This document shows positions 18,872 to 60,016 of a stretch of 64,000 bases of DNA, piece after piece (the first letter of the stretch is position 1; the number at the start of each line of letters is the position of its first letter). Origin of the DNA: Bacteroidia bacterium (GTDB lineage Bacteria; Bacteroidota; Bacteroidia; UBA8524); assembly GCA_965222995.1 (NCBI GenBank), contig OZ244977.1:9039-73038 (forward strand), read 5' to 3'. Under the pieces are notes generated by a model. The model was not told the DNA's origin. It ran no database searches and saw nothing but the letters and a program-made list of their open reading frames with translations. The position numbers were made by a program, and so were the translations under genes.

Positions 18872-18874
18872 AGG

Positions 18875-40670: not shown

Positions 40671-40714
40671 GTGTAACTCCTGTTTTTAATTCAAAACCTC
40701 AAAATTACACCATA

Positions 40715-40742: not shown

Positions 40743-40773
40743 TTGCCTTTTTATTTTGTAACTTAGTTGTTTA

Positions 40774-43701
40774 ATGGTTGCATTAAAGTACATAAAAAGC
40801 CTTTTTTTACTTTCTTTATTTCTTCTAAGTAATCAAATATATGCTACGAATGTAATGGGTAGTGATATTACGTATAAATGCCTGGGTAATAATAAATATG
40901 AAATTACATTAGCTGTTTATCGTGATTGCAATGGTTTAAACCTAGCTAACCCACCGCTTAAAGCTAGTTGTGGTAACAACTCAAAGAATTTTACTTTAAA
41001 TCTCTATAGTAAAACAGATGTTACAGGCTTAAACCCTAAATGTCAAATTTTTAGCAGGTGTAGCGGTAATTATAAATACGGTATCGAAGAGCATGTATTT
41101 AAAGGTGTTATAAACTTGGATTCTCTTAATTGTTGCAATGTTACATTAAGTATAAGTATATGTTGCCGCAATCATACTATAACTACCGGTGCTGCAGGTG
41201 CAAACTTTTATACTGAAGCAATAATAAATAAGTGTATAACTCCTTGCAATAGCTCTCCTTCTATTAGCTCAAAGCCGGTTTTTATTATTCCGGTAGGAGA
41301 AAACTTTATATTCAATAATAATGTATCTGATACTGTGGATGTTGGAGATTCATTATCCTTTAAACTAGTTAATCCTTTAAGTGGACAAGGTTCTAAAATC
41401 ACCTATATTAATAACTGGAGTGCAGAGAAGCCATTATCATACTTAGGATTTCCAAATAATGCAGGTTTTGTTTTTCCGGCAGGGTTTCACCTGGATGGTA
41501 GCACAGGAAATATAAGTTTCCGTCCTACGGTAAAAGACCAGATAACTGCTACAGCACTAGAGGTTACTGAATGGAGAAAAATAAATGGGGTAACAACCAA
41601 AGTAGGAGTTACAAGGCGCGATATGCAAATTATTGTTATAGGGAGTAATAACAAGCCTAAAGCCACCTTTGAAAATGTACTTGACGAAATAGCAGTTTGT
41701 AAACTTTCGGGAACTTTGTGTAAAGATATTGCTTTAACAAGACCTTTGGGCTATACTGATACAGTTGAGCTTACTTATGAGCATAACTTGCAAAATATTT
41801 CATTTATAAATGTGGGTTCGTTTTCAAATCCTGTAATCAGAGTATGTTATACCCCAACAATAGCGGAGGTAAACTCAAATAAAGCACTGAAGTTCACTAT
41901 AAAAGCTACAACAAATAGTTGCCCGTTTAAAGGGGTAGCTGAGAAAACTATTCAGTGGGTTGAGAGACCACCATTGCCAGATAGTTTTGCAATACAAAAA
42001 ACACTAACCTGTAGAAACTTAAAGCTTGTATTACTAAATAACTCATTAAATGTAAACAATGCTAGTGCAGTTTTTGAGGTGAAATCGCCTATTTCAACCA
42101 TTACAAAAGCATCTAATGCAATAGATATAAAAGACTTGAATTATGCAGGTTGGCATTATATTACTATGACAGTTGAAGACCAAAAATATTGCAGTAAGCA
42201 AGTTTACTACGATTCTATATACTTGCCACAAAGTAGTTTTTTAAAAGTTCAGATTCCTAAGGACACCATGTTGTGCAATACAAATTCATTCTCTCTACCC
42301 GCAAATACACAAAATGGTATGCTTCCTTTTGTATATGAGTGGAGTGGAGATGATACTGGCTCACAGCAAGTATTGCATACTACTGTTAGTAAAACAAGAA
42401 GTAAATTTATTATAAAAGTAACGGATGCGAATAGCTGTAAGTTTTCGGATACAATAAATGTTAGGTATTATAACCCTACGGTAGATATTAGCGGAGATAA
42501 AGTAGCGTGTGCAGGTGATGAGGTAGAAGTTAATGCAATTCTTAAAAACACTATAAAACCTAACTACCAATGGGTAGGATTTGCAAATGGACAAACCCGT
42601 TTTAAAGCAAAAGTTACACAAAACAGTCTTTTATCATTTCAGTTGGTAGATAGTTCAGGTTGTGTAATAAACAAAACTCACTTTATTAGGGTATATGCAC
42701 CAAAAGCAATATACGGGCATAATAAGGTGTATTGCGAGAGCGACTCCATAGTGCTTTCTGCAACAGAATCAGGCGGATTAGCACCTTACACTACAAAATG
42801 GCTGCCCTATAATGCTACAGGGAATATTGTTCCGCTAGGCTTTAAAAAGCGGGGCTTTTTAAATATAAGTACTATAACAACTGACGCCTTTGGTTGTGTA
42901 GACACACAAAAACAAGTTATACGCATAAATCCAACTCCTGATTTTAAGTTCACTGGGCTACCCACATTATGCGAAAGTTCACCTGAAATTTTCCTTACGA
43001 ATTATATTCAGCCAAAAAAAGGGATATGGAGTGGAGAGGGAGTTAGCAGCAATTATTTTAGACCTTATAGCGTAACACCGGGCAAAAAGAAACTTACTTA
43101 TTTTTATATGGATAGTGTCTTTTTTTGTTCCAATGAATTAAGTGCTGAAGTTGAGGTAGATGTTCATCCGGTTGCCGATTTTATTGCTGACTCTGTAGTA
43201 GGTGAATATACTCGTACTTTTAATTTTACCAATACGTCAAGGTATGGAGATAAGCATACATTTATATGGGATTTTGGCGACCCAAACTCCGGCAATGCCA
43301 ATATAGAAACTACCTTAAACAGTAAACACATATTTTCTGATACTGGAACTTACACTATTAAATTAAAGGTAAGTGGAGGAACTTGCCCTGATGATTCAAT
43401 AGTAAAAACAGGTTATATAAGAGCGTATAAAAACAACAAACCTGATTCAACTACCACTTCTATTAAAACTATTAATAACAACTCCTTAATTATATACCCA
43501 AACCCTGCATATAATGAATTGATTGTTGAAAGTAAAAGTAGAATAAGCAAGGCAATTATTTATAATACATTGGGGCAAGTTGTTGTGCAAAAGGAAAATA
43601 TTGCTGAGAATAGTATAAAATTAAATATAGAAAATCTAAGTAAAGGGCTATATATTCTCAGTATAGAAGGCACAAAATCAATCCCCTTCATTAAAAAATA
43701 G
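40774..43701 (+). CDS. T9SS type A CTD protein, array member 1 (Cys-rich N-domain, Ig-like repeats, PKD)
   Basis: Signal peptide; YRDCNG, CCRN, EWRKING; PKD WDFGD; CTD IYPNP...GLYIL. Confidence 0.85.
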   Translation: MVALKYIKSLFLLSLFLLSNQIYATNVMGSDITYKCLGNNKYEITLAVYRDCNGLNLANPPLKASCGNNSKNFTLNLYSKTDVTGLNPKCQIFSRCSGNYKYGIEEHVFKGVINLDSLNCCNVTLSISICCRNHTITTGAAGANFYTEAIINKCITPCNSSPSISSKPVFIIPVGENFIFNNNVSDTVDVGDSLSFKLVNPLSGQGSKITYINNWSAEKPLSYLGFPNNAGFVFPAGFHLDGSTGNISFRPTVKDQITATALEVTEWRKINGVTTKVGVTRRDMQIIVIGSNNKPKATFENVLDEIAVCKLSGTLCKDIALTRPLGYTDTVELTYEHNLQNISFINVGSFSNPVIRVCYTPTIAEVNSNKALKFTIKATTNSCPFKGVAEKTIQWVERPPLPDSFAIQKTLTCRNLKLVLLNNSLNVNNASAVFEVKSPISTITKASNAIDIKDLNYAGWHYITMTVEDQKYCSKQVYYDSIYLPQSSFLKVQIPKDTMLCNTNSFSLPANTQNGMLPFVYEWSGDDTGSQQVLHTTVSKTRSKFIIKVTDANSCKFSDTINVRYYNPTVDISGDKVACAGDEVEVNAILKNTIKPNYQWVGFANGQTRFKAKVTQNSLLSFQLVDSSGCVINKTHFIRVYAPKAIYGHNKVYCESDSIVLSATESGGLAPYTTKWLPYNATGNIVPLGFKKRGFLNISTITTDAFGCVDTQKQVIRINPTPDFKFTGLPTLCESSPEIFLTNYIQPKKGIWSGEGVSSNYFRPYSVTPGKKKLTYFYMDSVFFCSNELSAEVEVDVHPVADFIADSVVGEYTRTFNFTNTSRYGDKHTFIWDFGDPNSGNANIETTLNSKHIFSDTGTYTIKLKVSGGTCPDDSIVKTGYIRAYKNNKPDSTTTSIKTINNNSLIIYPNPAYNELIVESKSRISKAIIYNTLGQVVVQKENIAENSIKLNIENLSKGLYILSIEGTKSIPFIKK

Positions 43702-43856
43702 ATAGTATCATTAAATATCTTTTGATGCTTTATGTCTTAACAATCACCTCACTTTTTTGTTAAGAAATTTAAACAAAGTTGAATAGCTAACACTCATTAG
43801 TTATATTGGTGGTATATTTGCCGCTTCTAAAAAAGCACTTAAAAAGTAAGAAAGCT

Positions 43857-44921
43857 ATGCAAAAAGTAACTTTTGCTAATAAAAAAAGCCCCTTTTACAC
43901 GGCCCTTCGTAAAGAAGTGAATGCATATTTCAAAGAAAAAAATATTTCACAACAAGGTAATTGGAGCCTATATATAAAAACAATAATTTTTTTATCGGTA
44001 ACAGTAATGCTATATACGTGGCTGGTATTCTATACCCCTGTGTGGTATATAGCCTTACCAATGGCAGCATTATTGGGTATGAACCAAGCTTTTATTGGTT
44101 TTAATATTATGCACGATGCTTGCCACGGCAGTTATAGCGAAAAAAAATGGGTAAATGATTTATTTGGTTACAGCATGAACTTTTTAGGGAGTAATGCTTT
44201 TTTATGGAAAACCAAGCACAATGTAGTGCACCATACGTTTACCAATATTGATGGTATTGATGATGATATCATGAAAATACCGGTACTACGTCATTGCGAA
44301 ACGCAAAAGAAACTAAAAATGCACCGCTACCAATATATCTATAGCGTGTTAATCTATTTCTTAACAATCCATTTTTGGGTTTGGCTAATGGATTTTATTA
44401 AATACTTTACCGGAAAAGTGGTGGTTACTCCACTAAAGAACTTCACTGTAAAAGAGCACATAGTATTTTGGGTAAGTAAACTTTGGTATGTAGTGGCATA
44501 TATAATTATCCCTATATATTTTGTTGGTTTCACTCCTTTTATTATCGGTTTTTTAGTTATGAATGCACTATTTGGATTTACAATGTCAGTAGTATTTCAA
44601 TTAGCACATGTAGTAGAAAAAGTGCAATTTGAGGAAGCCTTGCACGGTGATAAGATAATTGATAAGGAGTGGGCAGAACATCAAGTGCTTACCACGTGTA
44701 ACTTCTCTACAAGAAATAAAATTATCTCATGGTTTTTAGGGGGGTTAAATTTTCAAATAGAACACCACTTATTCCCTAAAGTTAGCCACATCCACTATCC
44801 TGAAATTAGTGGTATTGTAGAGCGTGTTTGCAAACAGTTTAACATTAGCTACAATTACTACCCTACTATGGGGCAAGCTGTTGCCTCGCACTTTAAGGTA
44901 ATGCGCGATTTGGGAAGATAG
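43857..44921 (+). CDS. Membrane acyl-lipid/acyl-CoA desaturase (start re-called at ATG 43857)
   Basis: His boxes HDACH, HNVVHH, QIEHH; -7 box TATATTTG at 43813-43820 lies inside the longer TTG-start ORF. Confidence 0.9.
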   Translation: MQKVTFANKKSPFYTALRKEVNAYFKEKNISQQGNWSLYIKTIIFLSVTVMLYTWLVFYTPVWYIALPMAALLGMNQAFIGFNIMHDACHGSYSEKKWVNDLFGYSMNFLGSNAFLWKTKHNVVHHTFTNIDGIDDDIMKIPVLRHCETQKKLKMHRYQYIYSVLIYFLTIHFWVWLMDFIKYFTGKVVVTPLKNFTVKEHIVFWVSKLWYVVAYIIIPIYFVGFTPFIIGFLVMNALFGFTMSVVFQLAHVVEKVQFEEALHGDKIIDKEWAEHQVLTTCNFSTRNKIISWFLGGLNFQIEHHLFPKVSHIHYPEISGIVERVCKQFNISYNYYPTMGQAVASHFKVMRDLGR

Positions 44922-44924
44922 GCC

Positions 44925-45057
44925 GACGCGCTTTTCTTTTTAAAGGTTGCTTCCAAATGTCATATTTTATACAAAAAACAAAATATGACATTAGATAAAG
45001 CAACGTAAGCACATTTTTATGGTTTCTTTATTCAGAACAAACCATAAAAGTGTGCTT
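44925..45057. promoter_or_regulatory. Conserved intergenic element copy 1 (antisense ECF-like promoter plus sense motif and hairpins)
   Basis: Homologous to 48433-48551; minus AAGCAAC-N17-CGTC; plus GCAAC-N16-GGTTTCTT; 13-bp and 20-bp stems. Confidence 0.7.
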
Positions 45058-48402: not shown

Positions 48403-48432
48403 TTTGTTATAAGCTATTATAAAATGTGTCGA

Positions 48433-48551: not shown

Positions 48552-51500
48552 ATGAAATATTTTATCTATCAACTAAGTAAAAAAACTCTTTTTATTATAA
48601 CTTTTTGTATTAGCTGTTTTGCTGCAAAAGCGCAATTTGGCTCTTATATTAGCTATACAGCTATTGATTCGATAAAATACGAAGTAGTATTAACTGTTTT
48701 CAGGGATTGTAACGGTTCACCAGCGGGGAATACTGCAACTGTGGAAGTTTTTGGAAAATCAAGCGGTCCTTTCAAAGCCACGTTAAATAAAGTTTCAACC
48801 AAAGATATAACAGGAATAAACCCCAAGTGTCCTCAAAAATCAAAATGTAGTGGTAGCTATGCATACGGTGTAGAAGAAATAGTTTACAAAGACACTGTGG
48901 ATATTAGCGGCGGAAGTTGTAATTATGAGTTTAGATATAGCAACTGTTGCAGACCTAGCAGCATAACTAACGGTCCTGCAAATACTAACCACTTTAATAT
49001 TGCTACAATAAACAAGTGTTATGGGTTAAATACTGCTGCACAATTATCAAAAATTAGAATTCTAATTGCATCAGGGCAAGATTTTAAAGGAAAGATATTT
49101 ATTGGTGATACGATAAATACACAAGACTCTATTGTTTATTCACTGGTAAGAGTTTTAACAGATATTGGTAAACCTGCTTCCTATAGTGGGGTATACGACC
49201 ATACCAGACCTATTACATTTTTAGGGTTCCCAAATAAGAGTTTAAATCTACCTGCCGGTTTCCATTTCGATAGGGAAACCAGCGAGTTTGCGTTTAGACC
49301 CACAAAAAATAATCAAGTAGCAGTGTTTTGTGTTGAAGCCAAAGAGTTCAGGAAAATTAATGGAGTGATGCAAGTAATAGGAACATCACGTGTAGAATAT
49401 GTAAATGCTGTTATCTCTTCACCAAATAATAAAACACCATATATAAGCGGACAATCAGTAATAGCATGTGCAGGGGCAACCACCAGCATTACTTTAGAAG
49501 CAAAAGACATTGATAAAAAAGACACTACCTTTTTAGATGTTGTAGGATTACCTCAGGGAGCTACAGTTACCTACTCAAGAAAGGGTAATAATGCATTGGC
49601 AACTGTTACTTGGACACCCAAGCAAAGTGATATAAGTAATATCCCATATACTTTCACTGCAACAGCATCAGACGATGCTTGCCCGTTAAGCGGGTTTTCA
49701 TCAAAAGGATTTAGCTTTACTGTAAGAAAAGCACCTAAGGCAAATGATGTTAAGGTAGTGTCTAAACAGGCTAGTTGTAGTTCAGCAGAAATTATAATTG
49801 AGATTGACTCAAGCATAAAGAAGCCGATAATTAGCATGACGGATGAGGATAGTCTTTCTTTTGGAACAAACGATACCTCACGACTATACTTTAAAGGCAG
49901 TGGCTGGAAGAAGTTTTTTGTTAAAGTAAAAAACCAAAGTTTTTGCGATTACACATTGGTAGACTCTGTTTTTATTAACCCCCAATATAACCTGCAACTT
50001 AACACAAAAAACGACTCAACAGTTTGTCCTAACCAAAGCTTTATGTTTTTTACCAACGCTTTAAATGGTACTGCGTCATATTCTTATTTATGGCAAGATA
50101 TTAATACTAACAATACGGTATCAACTGCATCAACATTTAGTGTTACAATGGGCATAAAAAATTTACATTATAAGCTTCTTGTAGCAGACAGTAATTACTG
50201 TATAGGGTATGATAGTGTGAAAATGAGTGCTTATGAACTTTCTATAATAAAAGTAGGAAATAAAGAAATTGAAAAATGTCCCAACAAACCGTTTCAGTTA
50301 AGTGCTTCGCATGTTTCAGGACCGCCTATAAAACAGTTTCATTGGGTTGGAGTTGATACACTACCTATAGTTACGGCACAATTATCAAAACCGGGAACAT
50401 TTACAGTAGTAGCAATAAACACTGATGGGTGTAGAGTATTGGGTCGTACAAGTGTGAAGCTATATCCAATAGGGGTAAATGGCGGGCAATACACGTCTTG
50501 TAAAAATGCATCAATACAATTAGTAGCAAAAAGCACTGCGGGAAATTTACCTTTCAAGTATTCATGGTTGAGTAATAGCGTTAAAAACGATTCAACAATA
50601 GTTAATATTAAAAACAACGATACTTCTTTTGTTGTGAGAATAGAAGACGGCAGGGGCTGTATTGCTTATGATACAGCTAAAGTTATTACCTTTCCCTCAG
50701 TAAAATATCAGTTGCCATTAAACCCCGCAACATGTGCAGGAATACCCATAAACATTAAACTAAATAATATACAAGGTGCAGCACCGTTTACCTTTGTTTG
50801 GGATGGAAAGACAAGTACTGATAGCAGTAATGTTTTTACTTTACAACAAACTAAAAATGTTGCAGTTGATATTATAGACAGTAATAATTGTAAAGTATCA
50901 GACCATATAAATATTACAATAAACCAAAACCCCGAACCCCGTTTGGGTAACGACAAAAAAGAGTGCAAGGGCACTAAAAAAGTATTAAAGGCTTTTGTAG
51001 TAAGTGGAACAAAACCATTTAATTATTTATGGACAGACGGCAGCACTAACGATAGCTTTACAACAACAATAAATACAGTAACAAAAATAGGATTGCAGGT
51101 TACCGATGTTAATGGTTGTGTAGGGGTTGATACTATAACTTTTGATACCATTCAATCTCAAAATGCTGTTTTAACGCCATTAGCTAATCCATTTTGTGAA
51201 GAGGACGCACCTGTTTCACTTAAAAGCACTCCCACAATTGGTACTTGGACAGGAGCCGGTGTAAACGGAAAAATATTCAACCCTAAATCAGCAGGGGCTG
51301 GAGTACACCCTTTAAAGTTTAACTTTACCAGTATTTATAACTGTCCTGAAGAGGGAGAGATTTATGCAGTAGTAAAACAAACACCGCAGCCTGATTTTAC
51401 AGTAGATAAAACCAAAGGCACGCTTAGTACAGTATTTAACTTTACAAATACTACACAAGCTGATACTACTTATACCAGCGAATGGAATATGGGCGATGGA

Positions 51501-51890
51501 AGCATACTTACTGCACAAAACCCCAGTTATACATATCCAAAAGTTGGAACGTATACAGTTACACTAAAAGTAGATAATGGAGTGTGTTCAGTAAAAACGA
51601 TTACTAAAAGCAACTTTATTGAGGTTGACAGCATCATTAATTTTATACCAACCAGCGGAAAAGACAGACTAAATATATTTCCTAACCCGGTAAGTGAAAT
51701 TTTAACAATTGTAGCAGAGCAAGAGATAAAAGAGGTTGAAATAATTGATTTACAAGGCAAACAAGTACCGGTAGAGAACTTAAAAACAACGGAAATAAAT
51801 GTAAAAAACATCCCTCAAGGGCTGTACATACTTATTACAAAACTTAAAAGTGGCGCAGAAATAAAAACTAAATTATTAATAACCCATTAA
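48552..51890 (+). CDS. T9SS type A CTD protein, array member 3
   Basis: FRDCNG, CCRP, EFRKING; closely collinear with member 2; CTD IFPNP. Confidence 0.85.
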   Translation: MKYFIYQLSKKTLFIITFCISCFAAKAQFGSYISYTAIDSIKYEVVLTVFRDCNGSPAGNTATVEVFGKSSGPFKATLNKVSTKDITGINPKCPQKSKCSGSYAYGVEEIVYKDTVDISGGSCNYEFRYSNCCRPSSITNGPANTNHFNIATINKCYGLNTAAQLSKIRILIASGQDFKGKIFIGDTINTQDSIVYSLVRVLTDIGKPASYSGVYDHTRPITFLGFPNKSLNLPAGFHFDRETSEFAFRPTKNNQVAVFCVEAKEFRKINGVMQVIGTSRVEYVNAVISSPNNKTPYISGQSVIACAGATTSITLEAKDIDKKDTTFLDVVGLPQGATVTYSRKGNNALATVTWTPKQSDISNIPYTFTATASDDACPLSGFSSKGFSFTVRKAPKANDVKVVSKQASCSSAEIIIEIDSSIKKPIISMTDEDSLSFGTNDTSRLYFKGSGWKKFFVKVKNQSFCDYTLVDSVFINPQYNLQLNTKNDSTVCPNQSFMFFTNALNGTASYSYLWQDINTNNTVSTASTFSVTMGIKNLHYKLLVADSNYCIGYDSVKMSAYELSIIKVGNKEIEKCPNKPFQLSASHVSGPPIKQFHWVGVDTLPIVTAQLSKPGTFTVVAINTDGCRVLGRTSVKLYPIGVNGGQYTSCKNASIQLVAKSTAGNLPFKYSWLSNSVKNDSTIVNIKNNDTSFVVRIEDGRGCIAYDTAKVITFPSVKYQLPLNPATCAGIPINIKLNNIQGAAPFTFVWDGKTSTDSSNVFTLQQTKNVAVDIIDSNNCKVSDHINITINQNPEPRLGNDKKECKGTKKVLKAFVVSGTKPFNYLWTDGSTNDSFTTTINTVTKIGLQVTDVNGCVGVDTITFDTIQSQNAVLTPLANPFCEEDAPVSLKSTPTIGTWTGAGVNGKIFNPKSAGAGVHPLKFNFTSIYNCPEEGEIYAVVKQTPQPDFTVDKTKGTLSTVFNFTNTTQADTTYTSEWNMGDGSILTAQNPSYTYPKVGTYTVTLKVDNGVCSVKTITKSNFIEVDSIINFIPTSGKDRLNIFPNPVSEILTIVAEQEIKEVEIIDLQGKQVPVENLKTTEINVKNIPQGLYILITKLKSGAEIKTKLLITH

Positions 51891-51901
51891 ATCCCGTATG
51901 T

Positions 51902-54900
51902 ATGGAAGCGTTAAAAAAAGGTTTCATCCTTCTCACACTTTTAATTTTTTTTCAATTCAGTGCCAAAGCGGGGCATGCAGAATTAGGCTCTCATGTAGGC
52001 TATAAAGCAATAGACTCAACAACCTATGAGGTAACTGTAACCATTTACAGGGACTGTAACGGTATTGTTCCTGCAACAATTAAGTTGGGTATTACCGGAA
52101 AAACTACAGGCTTTTTTGAGGTAGTACTTACTGAAGTTTCCACTACAGATATAACCGGGGCATATTTAAACTGCAACTTTATAAGTAGATGTACAGGGTC
52201 ATTTGCCTACGGTATACAGAAGGTAATTTATAAAGATACAGTTGATATTTCGGGTGGGGCATGTGAGTATAGGTTTAGTTATAAAGACTGTTGTAGAAAT
52301 AGTAATATTACTACAGGTTCAGCAAACACTGGGCACTATAACTATGCGATGGTAAACAAGTGCTTTGGCATAAACAACTCTGTACAAGCAAACCTCGAGC
52401 CTAGAATATTAATTCCTGTTGGACAAGATATTTTTATGACCACTTTTAATGGTGATAAAATAGACAAACAAGACTCAGTAGTTTATAGCCAGGCAGATGT
52501 TTATGAAGATAGTGTAACCAGTTCTTCCTACTCGGGATCTTGGACAGCGCAAAGACCAATATCATTTTTAGGGTTCCCAAACAATGGTCTCAACTCTCCT
52601 GCAGGTTTTAAGTTTGATGAAACAACCAGTGCTCTAAGGTTTAGACCCACAGTACAAAACCAAGTAACACTCTTTTGTCATGAAGCAAGAGAGTATAGAA
52701 AGATTAATGGTAAAATGGAACTTGTAGGTCTTACCCGTATGGAGCATGAAGTAATTGTTATAGGAGGGCCTAATAACAAAACACCCACTATAAAAGGAAG
52801 TTCAGCAGTGGCTTGTGTGGGGCAAAAAACGTGTATTGATTTTGAGACCGACGATGTAGACAAGAATGATAGTACTTTTTTAACTTTCAAAGGATTACCA
52901 CAAGGTGCTACCGTAACTTATAGCCGTAAAGGAAGATTGGCTACTGCACAAGTTTGTTATGTTCCCACAAAAGCAGATGTAAGCAATAATCCTTACCAAT
53001 TTACTGTGTTTGTTAGCGATAATTCATGTGAAATAAGTGGTAGAAGTTCGTCATCGTTTACTTACATTGTAGATAATTCTCCTGACTCAACTAATATTGA
53101 AGTACTTTCAAAAACAACTAGTTGCAGCTCGACAGATATTATTGTGAACTTGAAAAATACTTCAGGTTTAACAGGATTATCGTGGGAAATATTTGATGAG
53201 GATAATTTGTCCAAATCAACCAATGATACTGCTAAACTATTTTTTAAAGGCAGCGGTTGGAAGAAGTTTTTTGTGATACTTAAGGCAACCAACTCGCTTT
53301 GCACATTTACCTTAGAAGATTCAGTTTTTATAGCTCCACAATACAGCTTAAATCTAAATACAATAAAAGATTCAACACTATGTACTCAGAGTGCACTTTC
53401 AATATTCACAACACCACTTAACGGAACAGCACCTTATAATTATTTATGGTCTTCTAATGTTGGCAATAACCTTTCTACACAATCTTCTTTCACACAAAAT
53501 ATCAATACTGTCGGTAAATCTAAGTATTATGTTTTTGTTAGTGATGACAATGGCTGTATAGGCAACGATTCAACAGAGATTACACTTACCGACCCACTAA
53601 TTATTAGTGCAGGCAATTACCCTTCAATTTGTGGTAATTCTGTATCAGTACAATTAAAAGCAAACGTTACTGCGGGTAAAACACCTTTTAAATATACGTG
53701 GCTCCCAAATAATGTAACTACTGATACATTTACAGTTGCCCCAACAACTTCAACAAATTACATACTAAAGGTTGAAGATGGTACAGGTTGTATAGCTTAT
53801 GATACCGCAAAAATTATAGTAGCCCCGCAGGTAAGCTTCACACCACCTCCAACAACTACAACTTGTGAGGGTAACTCGGTAACCCTCCAAGCCATTAATA
53901 TTGTAGGTGTTGCACCTATCACTTTTACTTGGGACAGTATTTCTGCTACTGACAAATTCACTATAAGTAATCCTACACAAAGTAAAGCTATAACTATAGA
54001 AATGAGAGATAGCAACAATTGTGTAGCTACGCGTTTTGTGCAGCTTGTTGTAAACCAGAATCCTGAAGTTTCCGCAGGAGCCAATAAAACGGTTTGTAGG
54101 GGAGTTCCTTTATTTGTTCAAGCTACAGCTACCAAGGGAAAATCACCGTATAGCTTCAAATGGTCTAACAATGTTAGTACTGATAGCTTTACTACAGTTT
54201 TAAATGCACCCAGACAGTTTATAGTTGAAGTAACCGATGATAACGGTTGTAAAGCAACAGATAACGTTACATTCCAACTACATCCGAAAGATAATATTAC
54301 CATAACCCAATTAGCCCCCCAATGCGAAACGGGTAACCCTATAGCATTAACAGCAAACCCAAATACAGGCATTTGGAGTGGAAATGGTGTAGGTACAGGT
54401 AATTTGTTCATCCCACAGCTTGCAGGTATAGGGGTGCATAAGGCTACATATAACTATACAAGCAGTAAAGGGTGCACTGAAACTGACGATATGTATATAG
54501 TAGTGAAACAGGTGCCTGATGTGAAATTTACAGTAGATAAGGTAAAAGGAGTGCCCAATGACCAGTTTAATTTTACAAACCAAACAACAGCAGATACCAA
54601 CTATACGGTAGTGTGGAACTTTGGTGATTTAGGAGCACCTGGAAATATCAGCCAACTGGCAAACCCCAGTTACACCTATACCAAAAAAGGATTGTATACG
54701 GTTAAGCTAACAGTTTATAATGGGGTGTGCAGCCCACAAACAGAAACTAAAGCAGACTATATTTTAGTAGATAGTGCTACAGTTTCTACACCTGAAATTA
54801 ATAAAACAAGTATTAAGGTTTACCCAAACCCTGCTAATGAAAACATTTTTATAGAGTCGGAAAATACAATTTCTGTTATCTCTATTTACGATGTAGCAGG

Positions 54901-55042
54901 AAGAGAGGTTTACCAATTAACAGACAACAACAACCCCAATATAATTATAGATATTGCTACACTTAAAAACGGAGTGTACTGGATTAAAGCAAGCTTTAAA
55001 GAGGGTGCATCAGCGTATAAAAAAATTGTAATAAGTCATTAA
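51902..55042 (+). CDS. T9SS type A CTD protein, array member 4
   Basis: YRDCNG, CCRN, EYRKING; PKD WNFGD; CTD VYPNP; 11 nt after member 3. Confidence 0.85.
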   Translation: MEALKKGFILLTLLIFFQFSAKAGHAELGSHVGYKAIDSTTYEVTVTIYRDCNGIVPATIKLGITGKTTGFFEVVLTEVSTTDITGAYLNCNFISRCTGSFAYGIQKVIYKDTVDISGGACEYRFSYKDCCRNSNITTGSANTGHYNYAMVNKCFGINNSVQANLEPRILIPVGQDIFMTTFNGDKIDKQDSVVYSQADVYEDSVTSSSYSGSWTAQRPISFLGFPNNGLNSPAGFKFDETTSALRFRPTVQNQVTLFCHEAREYRKINGKMELVGLTRMEHEVIVIGGPNNKTPTIKGSSAVACVGQKTCIDFETDDVDKNDSTFLTFKGLPQGATVTYSRKGRLATAQVCYVPTKADVSNNPYQFTVFVSDNSCEISGRSSSSFTYIVDNSPDSTNIEVLSKTTSCSSTDIIVNLKNTSGLTGLSWEIFDEDNLSKSTNDTAKLFFKGSGWKKFFVILKATNSLCTFTLEDSVFIAPQYSLNLNTIKDSTLCTQSALSIFTTPLNGTAPYNYLWSSNVGNNLSTQSSFTQNINTVGKSKYYVFVSDDNGCIGNDSTEITLTDPLIISAGNYPSICGNSVSVQLKANVTAGKTPFKYTWLPNNVTTDTFTVAPTTSTNYILKVEDGTGCIAYDTAKIIVAPQVSFTPPPTTTTCEGNSVTLQAINIVGVAPITFTWDSISATDKFTISNPTQSKAITIEMRDSNNCVATRFVQLVVNQNPEVSAGANKTVCRGVPLFVQATATKGKSPYSFKWSNNVSTDSFTTVLNAPRQFIVEVTDDNGCKATDNVTFQLHPKDNITITQLAPQCETGNPIALTANPNTGIWSGNGVGTGNLFIPQLAGIGVHKATYNYTSSKGCTETDDMYIVVKQVPDVKFTVDKVKGVPNDQFNFTNQTTADTNYTVVWNFGDLGAPGNISQLANPSYTYTKKGLYTVKLTVYNGVCSPQTETKADYILVDSATVSTPEINKTSIKVYPNPANENIFIESENTISVISIYDVAGREVYQLTDNNNPNIIIDIATLKNGVYWIKASFKEGASAYKKIVISH

Positions 55043-55077
55043 AAAAAATTCGATGAACGGCAGTTATAAATAATGGG

Positions 55078-55110
55078 CAAAGGTAGTGTATACACTACCT
55101 TTGTTGTTTT
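55078..55110. terminator. Perfect 26-bp palindrome plus T-tract; terminator-like and carrying a -7 box on each arm
   Basis: CAAAGGTAGTGTA|TACACTACCTTTG followed by TTGTTTT; TACCTTTG on both strands. Confidence 0.5.
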
Positions 55111-57045
55111 ATGAAAAAACTATTTCATTACTTAGCCGTAGCTTTTTTACTAATCGGTTTAGTTAAGAGTACTTGTGCTACCCATGTAATGGGGGGTGAA
55201 ATTACCTATAAAAATTTAGGGTCAAATAAACTGGAAATAACAGTTTCAGTATATAGAGATTGTAATGGCATTGCTTTAAGTAATTCTCCTTTACAAGTTA
55301 GAAGTGATAGTGGTTTTTATTCATTTACACTTAATAAAGTTTCTGTAATAGATATTACAGGTATTAACCTCAACTGTCCTGTGCAAAGTAGATGCAAGGA
55401 TACAGCAACATATGGTATCGAGGAGCATATTTTCAGAGATACAATAGACATGTCGGCATTAAAGGGTTGCAAGTTTGTATTTAGCTGGATGCAATGTTGT
55501 AGAAACGCTAACATTTCAACCGGAGCAGCGAATCATAACTATTATATGGAAACCACCTATAATAAATGCTTAACACCTAACAATTCATCGCCTTCCTTCT
55601 TAAGCTATCCGGTATTGTTGTTAGGTAGGGGACATGATATTAGCGTTTCTCATACAGCAGTTGATACTGTTGATAACGATGAAATTACCTATGAACTTAC
55701 GGAACCCTTATCGGCACAAGGGGCTAAAATTGGTTATTCAGGTTCATGGAGTGTTTCACGCCCGCTAACCTTTTTGGGTTATCCCAACGCAGGATTAAAT
55801 TTTCCTGCAGGCTTTAGGTTCGACTCTTTAACCAGCAATATGAGTTTTCGCCCTACTATAACAAACCAATCAACAGTTATTTCTTTAAAGGTGAAAGAGT
55901 GGCGAAAAATTAACGGTATCAGAACTCAAATAAGTGAAACCCATAGGGACATACAGCTAATAATTATTAATGCAGGCAATAATAATGCCCCAAGAATTGA
56001 CAGCACATTTAGCAGTATAGTAAAAGCATGCACACCGGGAACATATTGTGTGACGATACCCATTGAAGATAAAGACACAAGCGACACGCTTAGCATACAG
56101 ATTAAACATAATTTCAAAAATCTAACGTATACCAAAGACACAATCTCTCCCAATAAAATTAACTTAAAAGTTTGCTATACAGTTGACTCTAATGTTTTTA
56201 ATAATTCAGGCAGTTATTATTTTAAGATAATTGCAGAAGACGGTGCGTGTCCATTCACAGTGCGCTCAGAAAAAACTTACTTCTTTAGGCGGGATAGTCC
56301 CCAAAAAATAGTTATACCATCGTTGCCTTTATTTTGCGAAAATGATTCCCCTCTATTATTACTGACAAGTCCAAACTTTGGCACATGGAGTGGTTCCGGT
56401 ATAAGTGGCGGTACATTTTCACCATCATTAGCCGGAAAAGGAATACACAATATTGTATATAGTTTTAAAGATAGTATAACAGGCTGCTCTAATAAAGATA
56501 GTGTGTGGGTTAGGGTTTTACAACAGCCTAAAGCAAGTTTTACTGCCAACAAGAATATTGGATTATCTACAGATACATTTAAGTTTACCAACACAACCAC
56601 CGCCGACACTGCATTTCTAAGCTTATGGAATATGGGGCAAAACGGGGCTGCGGGTAATACACAGAACACTAAAGATGCCAGCCATGTATATAATGATTCA
56701 GGCAAGTTTATTATCAGCCTAATTATTAATAATGGAGTTTGTAAAGCCGATAGTACCCAAGATACTGTGGTACTTAGCTTCCCATTATCACTAAGAAAAC
56801 TTCCTCAAATAGTATTAAAATTATATCCAAATCCTGCGAAGGATAAACTTACCGTTGAAGCTGAAAGAGAAGTAGTGAGCATTAAACTGACTGATGTTTT
56901 AGGTAGGGTGTATAAGGTAGAAGGTATAAATAGAAGCACCAAACAAGAAATAGATTTAAGTAATTGCTCAGAAGGTGTTTATACAGTTGTAGTGAGAGAC
57001 GCTGAAGGAAGTGTTTTTATAAGTAAGGTGCTGATAAGGCGTTGA
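55111..57045 (+). CDS. T9SS type A CTD protein, array member 5 (short)
   Basis: THVMGGEITY, YRDCNG, CCRN, EWRKING; lacks most Ig-like repeats; PKD; CTD LYPNP. Confidence 0.85.
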   Translation: MKKLFHYLAVAFLLIGLVKSTCATHVMGGEITYKNLGSNKLEITVSVYRDCNGIALSNSPLQVRSDSGFYSFTLNKVSVIDITGINLNCPVQSRCKDTATYGIEEHIFRDTIDMSALKGCKFVFSWMQCCRNANISTGAANHNYYMETTYNKCLTPNNSSPSFLSYPVLLLGRGHDISVSHTAVDTVDNDEITYELTEPLSAQGAKIGYSGSWSVSRPLTFLGYPNAGLNFPAGFRFDSLTSNMSFRPTITNQSTVISLKVKEWRKINGIRTQISETHRDIQLIIINAGNNNAPRIDSTFSSIVKACTPGTYCVTIPIEDKDTSDTLSIQIKHNFKNLTYTKDTISPNKINLKVCYTVDSNVFNNSGSYYFKIIAEDGACPFTVRSEKTYFFRRDSPQKIVIPSLPLFCENDSPLLLLTSPNFGTWSGSGISGGTFSPSLAGKGIHNIVYSFKDSITGCSNKDSVWVRVLQQPKASFTANKNIGLSTDTFKFTNTTTADTAFLSLWNMGQNGAAGNTQNTKDASHVYNDSGKFIISLIINNGVCKADSTQDTVVLSFPLSLRKLPQIVLKLYPNPAKDKLTVEAEREVVSIKLTDVLGRVYKVEGINRSTKQEIDLSNCSEGVYTVVVRDAEGSVFISKVLIRR

Positions 57046-57103
57046 TAAAAATTGAGTTTTCTGTTTCTTGGTAAAGTATATATTGATATTTGTTATTTAA
57101 GGT

Positions 57104-60016
57104 ATGATTTCCAAAACACGGTTTTTTATTCTTTGTATTTATTTGCTTGGTGCAAAAACTCTTTTAAGTGTCCACATTCGCGGTGCTGAGATTAGTTATA
57201 AATATTTGGGTAATAATAAATATGAACTAGAGGTAATAACATATAGAGAATGCAATGGACCTGGCTCATTTCCTGTTGGTCCCCCAATAAATTTAAAAGT
57301 TGAATCTTCTTGTGGAACCTCAACTTTTAGTATTACTAATTTAATTCAGGTAAGTGATGCAACAGGGATAGGCAAAAATTGTAGTTTAAAAACACGATGT
57401 AATGGAGGAGGCTCAATTTACGGGGTCGAAAAAAGAATATTTAAAGATACTATCGATCTATCAAATGATACATGTTCTATTTATGAAATATCATATGAAG
57501 GATGTTGTAGGGTTTTAACAACAACTTTTAATATAGCAACAGACACTGAAGTAAAAGTTAAAATTAATAAATTACTCAAAGAGTCATCACCCAAATTCTT
57601 GAACCCACCAGTCTTTTTTTATCCAGTTTCAGAACAACAGTTTCTATCATTCGAAGCAACTGGAAACTCTGATAGTACTTTTGTTTCTTACGAACAATTA
57701 ACTCCAATTACAAAATCTAATCTACAGTATATAAATCCATGGTCGGCAACTAGACCTTTAACATTTCAAACATTCCCAAGAAATTGGGATCAATTCCCGG
57801 GTGGTATTAGATTTGATACTACAGTTGGAAATTTGAGCTTTAAGCCAGTTGTTGTTAATCAAGTTACTCCAATAGTTATTCGAGCAAAAAAATGGAAATT
57901 TATAAATGGCAAGAAACAAATAGTTTCTGAGTCAATAAGAGAGATTATCGTTACAACTACACCCAATGTAAATTCACTACCTAATTTTAATACCTACGAT
58001 AATACTTATATATTTTGTCCCGATACGGGAAGAAAAAGTATAGATATAAATATTCACGATAATGATAGTACTGATAGTTTAAGCTTGCGTTACTACCATA
58101 ATCTTGGAAGTAACTTAATAAGTATAAATGATTCAGGTAGTAGAAATAGTAAAGTCTTAAGGTTAGAATATCTAATTGATTCAAACGTTATTAAAAGAAC
58201 AAAAATTTCTACCTTTACTGTAGAGGCTAACGACAATGTTTGTGATTATAATGGTACTGCAACTAAAGCGTTTATAATAAAGATATTACCTTACCTTCAA
58301 GATAGTTTTTCAATTACTAAAAATTTGAGATGTAGACTTTTAAAGCTAGAAGCAAATAACAATAGTTCAGTAAATAAGCCTATTATAAGTTGGGAGATAG
58401 CTTCAACAAAGGACACTATAATTAGGAGCCAACCCATCACTTCATTTGATTTACCTGATACAGGTTGGTATAAAATACGATTAGAGGTGAGTAGTGATGA
58501 ACATTGCTCAAAAAGGCTCTATTACGACTCTATATACCTATCTCAAGCAGCTTTTTTAGAAATGAAAGCTCCTGCTGATACGTCATTATGTTTCAATCCC
58601 TCAATAAACATACAACCCACAGTTATTAATGGAACTCCACCCATAAACTACAACTGGTCTACAGGCGATACAACACCAACAATTACAGTTTTAGCAACAG
58701 CTCAAGCCAATCAATATTGGGTATCAGTTACAGATGCTAATAATTGTTCAGTCGCTCAAGACACAGTTAATATTTTTTACTACAACCCAAAAGTTAGCCT
58801 TAGTGGTAATAGCGAAGTATGTATAAGAGATACTATTCAGCTTCAAGCCATATTATCAGATACCACAAAGCCCACTTTTGGCTGGGTAGGTTTTAATTCA
58901 AGCACACAGCTAAGCGATAACCCTACCAATAATAAAATCTATACGTTTAGCTTAACAGACTTTGCAGGTTGTAAAATAGATACTACGTGGAATGTCAAGG
59001 TCTACAATCCTAAAATAAAGTTTACACATAATGCGGATGTATGCAGAGGTGATAGTCTTACTTTTTCTGCCCAAGCGGATAGTGGTAAACCCCCTTATTC
59101 TTATAATTGGGTTACTCTTAATAAAATGGGGCAAAGTGTAAAAATAGCTACTCAAGGACTTGGTTTAGGCTTTGTAAATGCTACATTAGAAGTAACGGAT
59201 AGTTTTGGGTGTATGGTTACAGGCTCAACAAAAGCCTTTGTAAAACCTAAACCAACAGTGAGCACAAGTGCTATAGCTTCTAAGTGTATAGCGATCGGGC
59301 AAATAAGCTTAATACCTTATGGTACACCGGCTGGCGGATTTTGGATTGGAAAGGGCGTAGATAGTGCCAGTAGTAATTTAAACCCTCAAATATCTGATAC
59401 GGGAGTGCACTTGTTAGTGTATGTTTATACAAATAATTTTAATTGTACTGATTCATCTGGAACAACAATAAAAATTGAACAAGAAAACAAAGCTGATTTT
59501 GTTGCAAACAAAACTGTTGCAGAGGAAGGGGATACAGTAAAGTTTACCAATATATCGACAGCAAAAGATATAAATAACAGTAAATGGGATTTTGGCGATC
59601 CTAACTCAAGCAATAACACCTTTACAGGCAAAGATGCCAGTCATACTTATAATGACTCTGGCTTATATACCATACAGCTTATTGTAAGCGGGGGAGTTTG
59701 CCCAGATGATACTCTGATAAAAGTAGATTATACCACTATTAATAAAAAATCTACTATTTCTGTAAAGGAGCTTAGCAAAAACGTACTTAAACTTTATCCC
59801 AATCCAGCAAAAGACAAACTCACTATTGAGGCTGAAACGGAAATAGTGAGTATTAAGCTTATTGATGCATTGGGTAGAGAGTATAGGGTGAAGGATGTTA
59901 AACCAGAAACTAAACAAGAAATTAATTTAAGCTCATTTGCTATGGGGGTATATATTATTAAAGCTAAAGATAGTGAAGGATATATATACACTAGCAAAGT
60001 ACAGATAAGTCGCTAA
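57104..60016 (+). CDS. T9SS type A CTD protein, array member 6 (divergent N-domain)
   Basis: VHIRGAEISY, YRECNG, CCRV; middle collinear with member 1; PKD WDFGD; CTD LYPNP. Confidence 0.85.
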   Translation: MISKTRFFILCIYLLGAKTLLSVHIRGAEISYKYLGNNKYELEVITYRECNGPGSFPVGPPINLKVESSCGTSTFSITNLIQVSDATGIGKNCSLKTRCNGGGSIYGVEKRIFKDTIDLSNDTCSIYEISYEGCCRVLTTTFNIATDTEVKVKINKLLKESSPKFLNPPVFFYPVSEQQFLSFEATGNSDSTFVSYEQLTPITKSNLQYINPWSATRPLTFQTFPRNWDQFPGGIRFDTTVGNLSFKPVVVNQVTPIVIRAKKWKFINGKKQIVSESIREIIVTTTPNVNSLPNFNTYDNTYIFCPDTGRKSIDINIHDNDSTDSLSLRYYHNLGSNLISINDSGSRNSKVLRLEYLIDSNVIKRTKISTFTVEANDNVCDYNGTATKAFIIKILPYLQDSFSITKNLRCRLLKLEANNNSSVNKPIISWEIASTKDTIIRSQPITSFDLPDTGWYKIRLEVSSDEHCSKRLYYDSIYLSQAAFLEMKAPADTSLCFNPSINIQPTVINGTPPINYNWSTGDTTPTITVLATAQANQYWVSVTDANNCSVAQDTVNIFYYNPKVSLSGNSEVCIRDTIQLQAILSDTTKPTFGWVGFNSSTQLSDNPTNNKIYTFSLTDFAGCKIDTTWNVKVYNPKIKFTHNADVCRGDSLTFSAQADSGKPPYSYNWVTLNKMGQSVKIATQGLGLGFVNATLEVTDSFGCMVTGSTKAFVKPKPTVSTSAIASKCIAIGQISLIPYGTPAGGFWIGKGVDSASSNLNPQISDTGVHLLVYVYTNNFNCTDSSGTTIKIEQENKADFVANKTVAEEGDTVKFTNISTAKDINNSKWDFGDPNSSNNTFTGKDASHTYNDSGLYTIQLIVSGGVCPDDTLIKVDYTTINKKSTISVKELSKNVLKLYPNPAKDKLTIEAETEIVSIKLIDALGREYRVKDVKPETKQEINLSSFAMGVYIIKAKDSEGYIYTSKVQISR

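What the first reader, a model, noticed from the sequence alone, without database searches (positions are those of the whole stretch)
40774..60016. 19-kb array of six T9SS-secreted paralogs built on an unassigned Cys-rich N-terminal domain
Seen: each has signal peptide + ~300-aa domain with R(D/E)CNG, C-x5/6-C, a further Cys, vicinal CCR, NKC (missing in member 6), RP(L/I)xFLG(F/Y)PN...PAGFxF and E(W/Y/F)R(K/R)ING; then a stalk of variable numbers of Cys-containing Ig-like repeats, one PKD domain and a type A CTD. Lengths are 644-1114 aa. No catalytic motif is recognisable. Known: type A CTDs route cargo through the T9SS to the surface; PKD/Ig stalks typify adhesins. Inference: a diversified surface-displayed receptor/adhesin family with different tip specificities and stalk lengths, encoded back-to-back with gldA; possibly an undescribed adhesion or prey/particle-recognition system.
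Basis: partly seen in the sequence, partly recalled or inferred. Interest (0 to 1): 0.7.

Follow-up and report, generated by a model that had tools for sequence, protein, structure and literature searches.

The report
Tandem T9SS surface-protein paralogs, uncharacterised cap
Six neighbouring genes of an uncultured Bacteroidia bacterium encode secreted, probably sugar-coated stalk proteins built only of immunoglobulin-like modules and capped by a widespread but never-described N-terminal domain; this is an ordinary kind of adhesin-like surface protein, not a new system.

Summary
Six colinear paralogs (644-1127 aa) lie at 40774-60016, each with a signal peptide, a conserved ~272-aa N-terminal module, a PKD domain and a type A T9SS C-terminal domain (CTD). 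The ~77-aa two-Cys stalk repeat occurs 0, 3, 3, 4, 5 or 5 times. The array is not contiguous: a fatty-acid desaturase gene separates member 1 from members 2-6.

The "unassigned Cys-rich domain" is two beta-sandwiches. Sub-domain A (~135 aa) is Ig-like, has no Pfam, NCBIfam or PDB relative, and usually has an odd number of Cys. Sub-domain B is cadherin-like and homologous to the domain that follows it. No enzyme fold was found.

The module is not rare. The profile hit 11,475 cluster representatives, 3,268 of them at E<=1e-30. Among the best hits it sits directly after the signal peptide, on proteins with type A or type B CTDs.

Tandem arrays recur in other uncultured-genome assemblies. In two syntenic relatives the flanking genes are 83-86% identical but array members only 31-44%.

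The cap is the best-conserved part, so "different tip specificities" is not supported. The gldA adjacency looks incidental.

The Bacteroidota O-glycosylation sequon is about four-fold enriched.

Verdict: a new member of a known kind. The proteins are probably glycosylated T9SS adhesin-like fibrils. No expression data exist.

The parts
40774..43701 (+). Paralog m1 (975 aa): signal peptide, N-terminal module, Ig-like domains C and D, 3 stalk repeats, pre-PKD Ig, PKD (43162-43380), type A CTD (43492-43677)
   Evidence: identical to library protein P0016
45019..48402 (+). Paralog m2 (1127 aa as the longest ORF; the real start is probably ATG 45058, giving 1114 aa): same build with 5 stalk repeats, PKD 47935-48093, CTD 48184-48396
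   Evidence: The ATG at 45019 lies in a leader sequence shared with the region upstream of m3, where it is followed by a stop
48552..51890 (+). Paralog m3 (1112 aa): 5 stalk repeats, PKD 51381-51581, CTD 51675-51881
   Evidence: 50% identical to m2 overall and 77-79% in the pre-PKD Ig and PKD domains
51902..55042 (+). Paralog m4 (1046 aa): 4 stalk repeats, PKD 54563-54736, CTD 54818-55033
55111..57045 (+). Paralog m5 (644 aa): shortest member, with no domain D and no stalk repeat; PKD 56524-56763 (below the Pfam cut-off: 21.6 bits against 27), CTD 56821-57036
   Evidence: used as the model for structure prediction
57104..60016 (+). Paralog m6 (970 aa): most divergent cap (NKL instead of NKC), 3 stalk repeats, PKD 59495-59689, CTD 59792-60004; its 3' end overlaps the convergent paaD by 4 bp
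55177..55584 (+). Sub-domain A of m5 (136 aa): Cys-rich Ig-like beta-sandwich of 7 strands with no sequence family. Equivalents: m1 40843-41250, m2 45130-45546, m3 48627-49034, m4 51974-52378, m6 57167-57583
   Evidence: AF2 pLDDT 82.9. Foldseek best E 0.011, TM 0.34-0.48 normalised to the query, to Ig constant domains. No Pfam hit at E<=10 for the m5 segment. Odd Cys count in 125 of 143 family members
55585..55992 (+). Sub-domain B of m5 (136 aa): cadherin-like beta-sandwich carrying DxxDxD, the RPLTFLGYPN loop, PAGFRFD..T..SFRPT and EWRKING. The A+B modules of the others end at m1 41658, m2 45951, m3 49439, m4 52786, m6 57982
   Evidence: Profile hit to the SraP cadherin-like modules 4m03_A, E 3e-4. 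hhalign against the following domain C: prob 82%, E 1.1e-5, 99 columns. AF2 model of A+B: pLDDT 86.6, pTM 0.86
42256..42948 (+). Stalk repeats of m1 (3 x ~77 aa, two Cys each). Others: m2 46522-47676 (5), m3 50007-51167 (5), m4 53366-54301 (4), m6 58574-59263 (3)
   Evidence: An m2 stalk segment matches PF19081 Ig_7 (CHU_C-associated Ig-like) at 29.5 bits against a cut-off of 27.3; SprB repeat is below threshold
43806..44921 (+). Fatty-acid desaturase gene inside the array; not a family member
   Evidence: PF00487 1.3e-38; 85.6% identical to its L025 counterpart, which there lies directly beside gldA
39753..40670 (-). gldA, divergent neighbour of m1 (context, probably not functionally linked)
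   Evidence: TIGR03522 2.6e-134, above cut-off; synteny in L025
55076..55105 (+). 13-bp stem hairpin followed by a T run between m4 and m5 (terminator-like)
   Evidence: The scan as a whole is not above chance (13 found against 11.9 expected), so this is only a pointer

Best explanation
The six genes encode non-enzymatic, fibril-like cargo of the type IX secretion system.

Proposed path. Each protein is exported by Sec. It folds in the periplasm into a chain of Ig-like beta-sandwiches and forms disulfides there. It is probably O-glycosylated at many D-(S/T)-(A/I/L/M/T/V) sequons. Its type A CTD is recognised by the PorV shuttle and the protein passes the SprA/Sov translocon. It is then either anchored by its C-terminal end to the cell surface or released.

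Geometry. The CTD is the proximal end, so the invariably N-terminal two-lobed cap (Cys-rich Ig-like sub-domain A plus cadherin-like sub-domain B) is the distal tip. It is held 0 to 5 extra stalk repeats away from the cell. The cap is most likely a binding head for a conserved ligand, or a protein-protein contact surface.

The locus. It is a fast-evolving island of surface-protein genes that changes by duplication, loss and divergence.

Shown: domain content, fold class, family size, N-terminal position of the cap among the best hits, synteny and divergence, and sequon enrichment.

Inferred: secretion route, surface display, glycosylation, and binding function.
For: - PKD is above its curated cut-off in five of six members; the type A CTD is above its cut-off in all six.
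- Every member has a Sec-type N-terminus: basic residues, a hydrophobic stretch, then a small-x-small site before the conserved first strand.
- AF2 predicts the cap as all-beta, with pLDDT 86.6 and pTM 0.86. Foldseek returns only Ig-like, cadherin, Rib or FnIII-type sandwiches and no enzyme fold.
- Sub-domain B matches the SraP cadherin-like modules and is homologous to the next domain.
- The stalk repeats are Ig_7/SprB-like.
- The profile hit 11,475 representatives. Of the best 150, nearly all start at residues ~1-95 of the protein.
- Of 45 close homologs, 26 have a type A CTD and 13 have a type B CTD.
- Tandem arrays of 3-5 copies occur in six other loci.
- Flanking genes are 83-86% identical to L024/L025, but array members only 31-44%.
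- The sequon occurs 85 times against 22.0 +/- 4.7 expected. The other 38 ORFs of the window have 21 against 26.2 expected. The motif and its periplasmic use are described in PMC12871550.
- GhpA is a precedent for a T9SS substrate with an N-terminal distal adhesin module and a glycosylated, disulfide-containing Ig-like stem (bioRxiv 10.1101/2024.01.29.577165).
- Type A CTD routing through PorV is described in PMC12618676.
Against: - There is no expression or localisation evidence; no RNA run holds the locus.
- No T9SS core gene lies in the window. gldA belongs to the gliding ABC transporter, not to the secretion machine.
- T9SS effectors can be released into the medium instead of anchored (PMC10202324 abstract).
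- No ligand can be inferred. The cap resembles no characterised lectin or adhesin head. Being the most conserved part, it could instead serve assembly or self-association.
- Part of the sequon enrichment comes from structural motifs such as the cadherin-like DxDxDS(L/I).
Confidence: 0.55

Rival explanations
1. The proteins form a structural or cohesive coat rather than ligand-specific adhesins. They would make a glycoprotein layer, or act as homophilic cadherin-like cell-cell connectors. The conserved cap would contact a copy of itself or a conserved cell-surface partner. Rapid divergence would reflect pressure from phages or grazers on an exposed antigen.
For: The cap is the best-conserved segment. 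Sub-domains B and C are cadherin-like and carry a conserved acidic DxxDxD cluster. Sequon density is very high. The locus diverges far faster than its flanks. Sub-domain A usually has an odd Cys count, which would allow an intermolecular disulfide.
Against: There is no evidence of oligomerisation. Stalk length varying from 0 to 5 repeats fits poorly with a regular layer. Nothing distinguishes self-binding from foreign-ligand binding in silico.
Confidence: 0.2
2. The proteins are gliding-motility adhesins that work with the neighbouring gldA. In this reading they are SprB- or RemA-like mobile surface adhesins propelled by the gliding machinery.
For: gldA lies 103 bp away on the other strand. 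The stalk repeats are weakly SprB/Ig_7-like. Some public sources call homologs 'gliding motility-associated-like'. 13 of 45 close homologs carry the type B CTD typical of SprB and RemA.
Against: All six window members carry type A, not type B, CTDs. No sprF/porP-like gene is adjacent. In the syntenic relative L025, gldA abuts the desaturase with no paralog between them, so the adjacency is not conserved. The proteins are 6-10 times shorter than SprB.
Confidence: 0.07
3. The proteins are secreted and have a cryptic chemical activity in sub-domain A. A near-invariant Cys (YRDC, 99%) would lie near a conserved His at the mature N-terminus (83%) and act as a nucleophile or metal ligand, for example for covalent attachment, redox chemistry or metal capture.
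For: Sub-domain A has an odd number of Cys in 125 of 143 members, and the minimal members keep just three: C29 plus two loop Cys. The vicinal C107-C108 pair co-varies as a unit with no other partner (phi 0.97). In the predicted hairpin of strands 4-15 and 18-28, residues 3-4 face residues 29-30 (the register is inferred).
Against: The His is replaced by N, S and Q in m1-m3. C29 sits at the position of the canonical buried B-strand Cys of Ig folds. No known catalytic or metal-site family matches. Single Cys also occur in the PKD and CTD domains of these proteins.
Confidence: 0.08
4. The genes are silent or decaying relics of a duplicated surface-protein family.
For: No transcript data exist. 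The paralogs are strongly diverged.
Against: All six ORFs are intact over 644-1127 codons, and every domain and the conserved core residues are retained. The sequence is identical in three independent assemblies. Equivalent intact arrays occur in relatives.
Confidence: 0.03

Closest known systems
T9SS type A CTD cargo with PKD/Ig-like spacers (general class; TIGR04183 / PF18962)
   Same: Sec signal peptide, modular beta-sandwich body, a PKD domain just before a ~70-aa type A CTD, Bacteroidota host. CTD above the curated cut-off in all six; PKD in five of six.
   Different: Characterised members usually carry an enzyme or a known binding domain. Here the only non-stalk part is an N-terminal A+B cap with no curated family.
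GhpA grappling-hook protein of Aureispira (bioRxiv 10.1101/2024.01.29.577165)
   Same: T9SS substrate. The N-terminal adhesin-like module is the distal end. The stem is made of Ig-like repeats with intramolecular disulfides and O-glycans. The C-terminal sorting domain lies at the cell.
   Different: GhpA has 5,898 aa and 52 repeats, forms heptamers, and is anchored through downstream PorP/PorE-like GhpB/C. Its head resembles Antigen I/II adhesins. The window proteins have 644-1127 aa, a type A CTD, no partner genes and an unrelated head.
SprB / RemA gliding adhesins and CHU_C-type proteins (PF13573 SprB repeat, PF19081 Ig_7, PF13585 CHU_C)
   Same: The stalk repeats score as Ig_7 (29.5 bits against 27.3) and weakly as SprB repeat. 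13 of 45 close homologs of the cap carry a CHU_C (type B) CTD.
   Different: The window members have type A CTDs and no SprF-like shuttle gene, and they are far smaller. The SprB repeat is below threshold.
Cadherin-like (CDHL) modules of S. aureus SraP (PDB 4m03) and the He_PIG / Big_9 Ig families
   Same: Sub-domain B shares the 'LP.G..FD..T..I.GTP' strand-loop-strand motif (E 3e-4). Domain C gives sub-threshold He_PIG and Big_9 hits.
   Different: Matches are partial or below the curated cut-offs. B carries a ~20-aa insert (the RPLTFLGFPN loop). The organism and secretion route are different.

Membership tests
T9SS type A cargo | C-terminal type A sorting domain (TIGR04183 / PF18962) above the curated cut-off | tested here: met
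   All six: PF18962 41-53 bits against a cut-off of 27; TIGR04183 33-43 bits against 23
T9SS type A cargo | N-terminal Sec signal peptide | tested here: met
   Read directly from the sequence: basic n-region, hydrophobic h-region of 10-15 residues, and a small-x-small site before the conserved first strand in all six. No predictor was run
T9SS type A cargo | T9SS core machinery (SprA/Sov, PorV, GldKLMN, PorU/Z) in the same genome | not testable with these tools
   Only a 64-kb window is available, and it holds gldA but no T9SS core gene
T9SS type A cargo | T9SS-dependent export, CTD cleavage, and surface attachment or release | not testable with these tools
   Needs proteomics or mutants
PKD domain proteins (PF18911/PF00801) | PKD domain above the gathering score | tested here: met
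   m1-m4 and m6: 35-52 bits against 27. m5 is below the cut-off (21.6 bits) but aligns colinearly with the others
SprB-type gliding adhesins | Type B CTD (TIGR04131 / CHU_C) with a cognate SprF/PorP-like shuttle gene | tested here: not met
   No CHU_C or type B hit in any of the six, and no SprF-like neighbour
SprB-type gliding adhesins | SprB repeats (PF13573) above the cut-off | tested here: not met
   Best 23.5 bits against a cut-off of 28
CHU_C-associated Ig-like repeat (PF19081 Ig_7) | Repeat matches the model above the gathering score | tested here: inconclusive
   An m2 stalk segment scores 29.5 bits against 27.3, but full-length proteins score 19.7-20.2 bits
Cadherin-like / He_PIG Ig domains | Match to the family model above the cut-off | tested here: inconclusive
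   Sub-domain B: PDB profile hit to SraP CDHL, E 3e-4, over ~40-55 residues only. Domain C: He_PIG in 6 of 18 and Big_9 in 4 of 18 sequences, all sub-threshold. B and C are homologous at hhalign prob 82%
Any characterised enzyme or lectin head | Sequence or fold match of the N-terminal module | tested here: not met
   Pfam and NCBIfam: none. PDB sequences: only SraP CDHL. Foldseek against PDB: no hit at E<=1e-3, and the best hits are generic Ig sandwiches

The most novel reading that the evidence does not exclude
Sub-domain A would be a previously unrecognised, phylum-wide 'cap' domain of T9SS fibrils whose conserved unpaired cysteine (with the vicinal Cys-Cys pair) performs chemistry at the distal tip. 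The chemistry could be covalent or metal-dependent capture of a target, or disulfide-mediated coupling between fibrils. The tandem, fast-diverging, heavily glycosylated arrays would then be an antigenic-variation-like answer to phage or grazer pressure on that exposed tip.
Probability: 0.1. Interest if true: 0.6.

Novelty: new member of a known kind. Interest (0 to 1): 0.33.

Why it matters
The type of protein is familiar: T9SS cargo made of Ig-like modules. The analysis nevertheless shows three things worth recording.

1. A very large, environmentally widespread set of such proteins shares an N-terminal two-lobed cap that no curated library models. A Pfam or InterPro entry for it would name thousands of "hypothetical" or "PKD domain" proteins in aquatic Bacteroidia.
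2. These genes sit in tandem arrays that diverge much faster than their chromosomal surroundings.
3. They are unusually rich in the Bacteroidota O-glycosylation sequon.

Together this makes the family a reasonable target for studying how uncultured Bacteroidia build and vary their glycoprotein surface. It does not reveal a new mechanism.

Tried and rejected
- LPMO-like histidine brace. The conserved 'A-T-H-V-M-G' suggested an N-terminal His. The canonical signal-peptidase site (A-x-A before [ST]-H) puts His at mature position 2, the His is N/S/Q in m1-m3, and no LPMO fold was returned. Rejected.
- Type V pilin or another two-domain Bacteroidia surface fold. No Foldseek support.
- Programmed variation (invertible promoters, cassette recombination). 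There are no inverted repeats >=30 nt and no long near-identical direct repeats in 40500-60300; the longest repeat is 300 nt at 68%. Rejected.
- Conserved accessory or partner genes. Clustering all flanking ORFs of 80 related loci gave only lineage-specific housekeeping synteny (radical-SAM enzyme, metK, WD40 protein and others) and no PorP/SprF or OmpA-type neighbour.
- Sub-domain A as a diverged copy of B or C. hhalign probability 1-2%.
- Sigma-70 promoter and terminator scans were at chance level. A Bacteroidetes -7 box (TAnnTTTG) was found upstream of m5 only. Transcription units remain unresolved.
- Searches that returned nothing useful: exact look-ups of m1 (P0016) and P0001 in the contig index found no record. 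The first genome scan with the 14-sequence alignment failed for lack of conserved words. The word-indexed protein searches returned only 14 and 47 mostly fragmentary, unnamed hits. No RNA run holds the locus.
Full report
**1. What is in the sequence**

Between 40774 and 60016 the + strand carries six long ORFs:

| Member | Coordinates | Length (aa) |
|---|---|---|
| m1 | 40774-43701 | 975 |
| m2 | 45019-48402 | 1127 |
| m3 | 48552-51890 | 1112 |
| m4 | 51902-55042 | 1046 |
| m5 | 55111-57045 | 644 |
| m6 | 57104-60016 | 970 |

BLASTP shows that they are colinear paralogs over their whole length. m2/m3 are 50% identical, m2/m4 34%, m1/m6 34% and m1/m5 36%.

Pfam and NCBIfam place a PKD domain and a type A T9SS sorting domain at the C-terminus of each. 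The sorting domain is above its curated cut-off in all six; the PKD domain is above its cut-off in five, and m5 scores 21.6 bits against 27.

The divergent upstream gene at 39753-40670 is gldA at equivalog level (TIGR03522, 447 bits).

- An unrelated fatty-acid desaturase gene (43806-44921, PF00487 1.3e-38) lies between m1 and m2.
- The ATG at 45019 sits in a leader that m2 shares with the region upstream of m3, where it is followed by a stop.
- m1 and m6 deviate from some of the quoted motifs.

The 19.8 kb lie on single 68-70 kb contigs with no difference in three independent public runs. The tandem arrangement is therefore not an assembly artefact.

**2. Anatomy of the proteins**

After the signal peptide comes a ~272-aa module that gives no Pfam or NCBIfam hit, even at E<=10. 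AlphaFold2 on a 14-sequence alignment predicts it confidently (pLDDT 86.6, pTM 0.86) as all-beta with two lobes.

- **Sub-domain A (m5 residues 23-158).** It is a seven-strand sandwich. Modelled alone (pLDDT 82.9), its best Foldseek matches in the PDB are TCR and other Ig constant domains, with E >= 0.011 and TM 0.34-0.48 normalised to the query. That is a generic Ig-like fold with no specific relative.
- **Sub-domain B (residues 159-294).** A profile of the module hits only the cadherin-like modules of S. aureus SraP among PDB sequences (4m03_A, E 3e-4), through the 'P.G..FD..T..SF.PT' motif. hhalign shows that B is homologous to the next domain, C (prob 82%, E 1.1e-5, 99 columns). A is related to neither B nor C.
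- **Domain C.** It gives sub-threshold He_PIG and Big_9 hits.
- **Domain D and the stalk.** A further two-Cys sandwich (D, absent in m5) follows. Then comes a ~77-aa repeat with consensus C..A..G..P..Y.W...D..GC...D, present in 3, 5, 5, 4, 0 and 3 copies in m1-m6. On a stalk segment it scores as Ig_7, the CHU_C-associated Ig-like domain (29.5 bits against 27.3), and weakly as SprB repeat.
- **C-terminal end.** A last Ig-like domain, PKD and the CTD close the chain.

The whole protein is thus a string of beta-sandwiches, and no catalytic family or fold was detected anywhere.

**3. Cysteines**

I aligned 143-144 non-identical family modules drawn from the window, 80 related loci and 45 library proteins. 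Cys columns co-occur in pairs:

| Pair | phi |
|---|---|
| C98-C131 | 0.98 |
| C13-C135 | 0.89 |
| C150-C266 | 0.92 |
| C43/45-C97 | 0.53 / 0.27 |

The vicinal C107-C108 appear and vanish together (phi 0.97) and have no other covarying partner. C29 (in YRDC) is 99% conserved and C73 is 97% conserved.

Sub-domain A has an odd number of Cys in 125 of 143 sequences. The poorest members keep exactly three: C29 and two loop Cys.

One Cys per cap is therefore probably unpaired, or the CC pair forms a vicinal disulfide and one of the trio is free. I could not read the model coordinates, so which Cys is free remains open.

**4. How common the module is**

An exhaustive HMMER search of 1.84 billion cluster representatives with the module profile found 11,475 proteins at E<=1e-3, 8,287 at E<=1e-10 and 3,268 at E<=1e-30. 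Of the best 150, nearly all match the full profile starting at residues ~1-95 of the protein, directly after the signal peptide. Some weaker hits are only cadherin-like repeats (for example P0146).

Of 45 close homologs, 26 end in a type A CTD, 13 end in a type B (CHU_C) CTD, and 30 have PKD.

Names given by public sources are 'PKD repeat protein', 'gliding motility-associated-like protein', 'PKD domain-containing protein' or 'hypothetical protein'.

A pattern-limited scan of species-representative genomes found 242 relatives. All 80 listed came from uncultured-genome assemblies, mostly labelled Bacteroidia or Bacteroidota: Crocinitomicaceae, Cryomorphaceae, Parvicellaceae, Vicingus, Saprospiraceae, Chitinophagaceae and Sphingobacteriales. 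A few bins carry evidently wrong labels. The best match was 63% identical, so the window's genome itself is not among the representatives.

**5. The locus in relatives**

Tandem arrays recur: five copies in L024, four each in L025, L026, L022 and L032, and three in L023.

L025 is syntenic with the window: gldA, desaturase, four paralogs, paaD, paaC. L024 shows five paralogs, paaD, paaC.

GldA, the desaturase, PaaD and PaaC are 83-86% identical to the window's proteins. The array members reach only 31-44% to their best counterparts, and both copy number and gene order differ. The array is therefore a fast-evolving island at a fixed chromosomal site.

In L025, gldA abuts the desaturase. m1's position beside gldA in the window is therefore a local rearrangement, not a conserved linkage.

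Segment by segment, the cap (A and B, 43-60% in most comparisons) is the best conserved part. Domain C, the stalk repeats and the CTD are mostly 24-37%. The exception is the m2/m3 pair, where the pre-PKD Ig and PKD domains are 77-79% identical, a likely recent duplication or conversion tract.

There are no inverted repeats and no long near-identical repeats that would point to programmed switching. No partner gene is conserved across the 80 loci.

**6. Glycosylation signal**

The Bacteroidota O-glycosylation sequon is D-(S/T)-(A/I/L/M/T/V). It is used on non-cytoplasmic proteins and is generally nearly fully occupied (PMC12871550).

| Set | Observed | Expected from shuffles | Density per 1000 aa |
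|---|---|---|---|
| Six paralogs | 85 | 22.0 +/- 4.7 | 14.5 |
| Other 38 ORFs of the window | 21 | 26.2 | 1.5 |

Many sequons sit at fixed places of the stalk repeat, just before Cys1 and just after Cys2. One (DS[LI], position 168 of the module) is present in 81% of the family. Part of this enrichment may be structural, but it fits heavy O-glycosylation of the stalk, as seen on every Ig-like repeat of the T9SS substrate GhpA.

**7. Interpretation**

The best-supported reading is a family of non-enzymatic, probably glycosylated, fibril-like T9SS cargo proteins. The C-terminal end is handled by PorV and the attachment complex, or is released (PMC12618676; PMC10202324 abstract). The conserved N-terminal cap is the distal end.

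Three specifics are not supported:
- The tips are not the diversified part.
- gldA is an incidental neighbour.
- This is one locus of a very large, already sequenced but uncharacterised family, not a distinct system.

Rivals that cannot be excluded are a cohesive or protective glycoprotein coat, a cryptic thiol- or metal-based activity in sub-domain A, and, much less likely, gliding adhesins or silent genes. Expression, localisation and ligand are untested; no RNA run holds the locus.

**8. Verdict**

The novelty class is a new member of a known kind: T9SS-dependent Ig-repeat surface proteins.

The useful by-products are a definable, unmodelled cap domain (sub-domain A plus a cadherin-like B), evidence that the array is a hypervariable island, and the sequon enrichment. 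Interest is modest.

Noticed in passing
window 12684-22656: Five consecutive ORFs (12684-14171, 14168-15670 and 15667-17058 on the - strand; 17135-18871 and 18875-20233 on the +) each have 7-8 hydrophobic segments and no Pfam or NCBIfam hit. The first two are 50% identical paralogs. They lie next to a 394-aa ORF (20217-21401) with no family hit and one hydrophobic segment, and a GT87-like membrane glycosyltransferase (21481-22656). The cluster looks like uncharacterised polytopic (GT-C-like?) glycosyltransferases. The oligosaccharyltransferase of the Bacteroidota O-glycosylation system is still unknown (PMC12871550).
   Followed up: partly
window 40774-60016: The O-glycosylation sequon D-(S/T)-(A/I/L/M/T/V) is about 4-fold over-represented in the six paralogs (85 against 22 expected). 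It is about 10-fold denser than in the other 38 ORFs of the window.
   Followed up: yes
window 44922-45057 and 48403-48551: The regions upstream of m2 and m3 share 'AAAGGTTGCTT' and 'ATTATGGTTTCTT' and each contains an A/T-rich palindrome (for example ATGTCATATTTTATACAAAAAACAAAATATGACAT). These leaders were duplicated with the genes. They could be regulatory or terminator elements.
   Followed up: partly
window 61841-62614: A solitary HNH_2 endonuclease gene (PF13391, 2e-13) lies just beyond paaC/paaD at the distal edge of the variable island. It is followed by a LytTR response regulator at 63257-63940.
   Followed up: no
window 38213-39751: A 512-aa ORF is extremely acidic (E/D/S-rich, low complexity) and has a single C-terminal TPR. 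It overlaps the end of an LptE-like gene and ends 1 bp before gldA's stop.
   Followed up: no
window 4304-5212: A bacterial WD40 beta-propeller protein (PF00400, 1.9e-41). In several Chitinophagales-like assemblies (L048-L057, L064) its homolog and two neighbours lie directly upstream of a family member. In the window it is 35 kb away, so this is lineage synteny and not linkage.
   Followed up: partly
L004/L006/L024 (CALRQL02...), L018/L020/L021/L027 (CAZUIT01, CAZOZL01): Public genome bins labelled 'Agrobacterium sp.' and 'uncultured Burkholderiales' carry these Bacteroidia-type T9SS cargo genes. L024 also has flanks 83-85% identical to the window. The taxonomic labels of those bins look wrong.
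   Followed up: no
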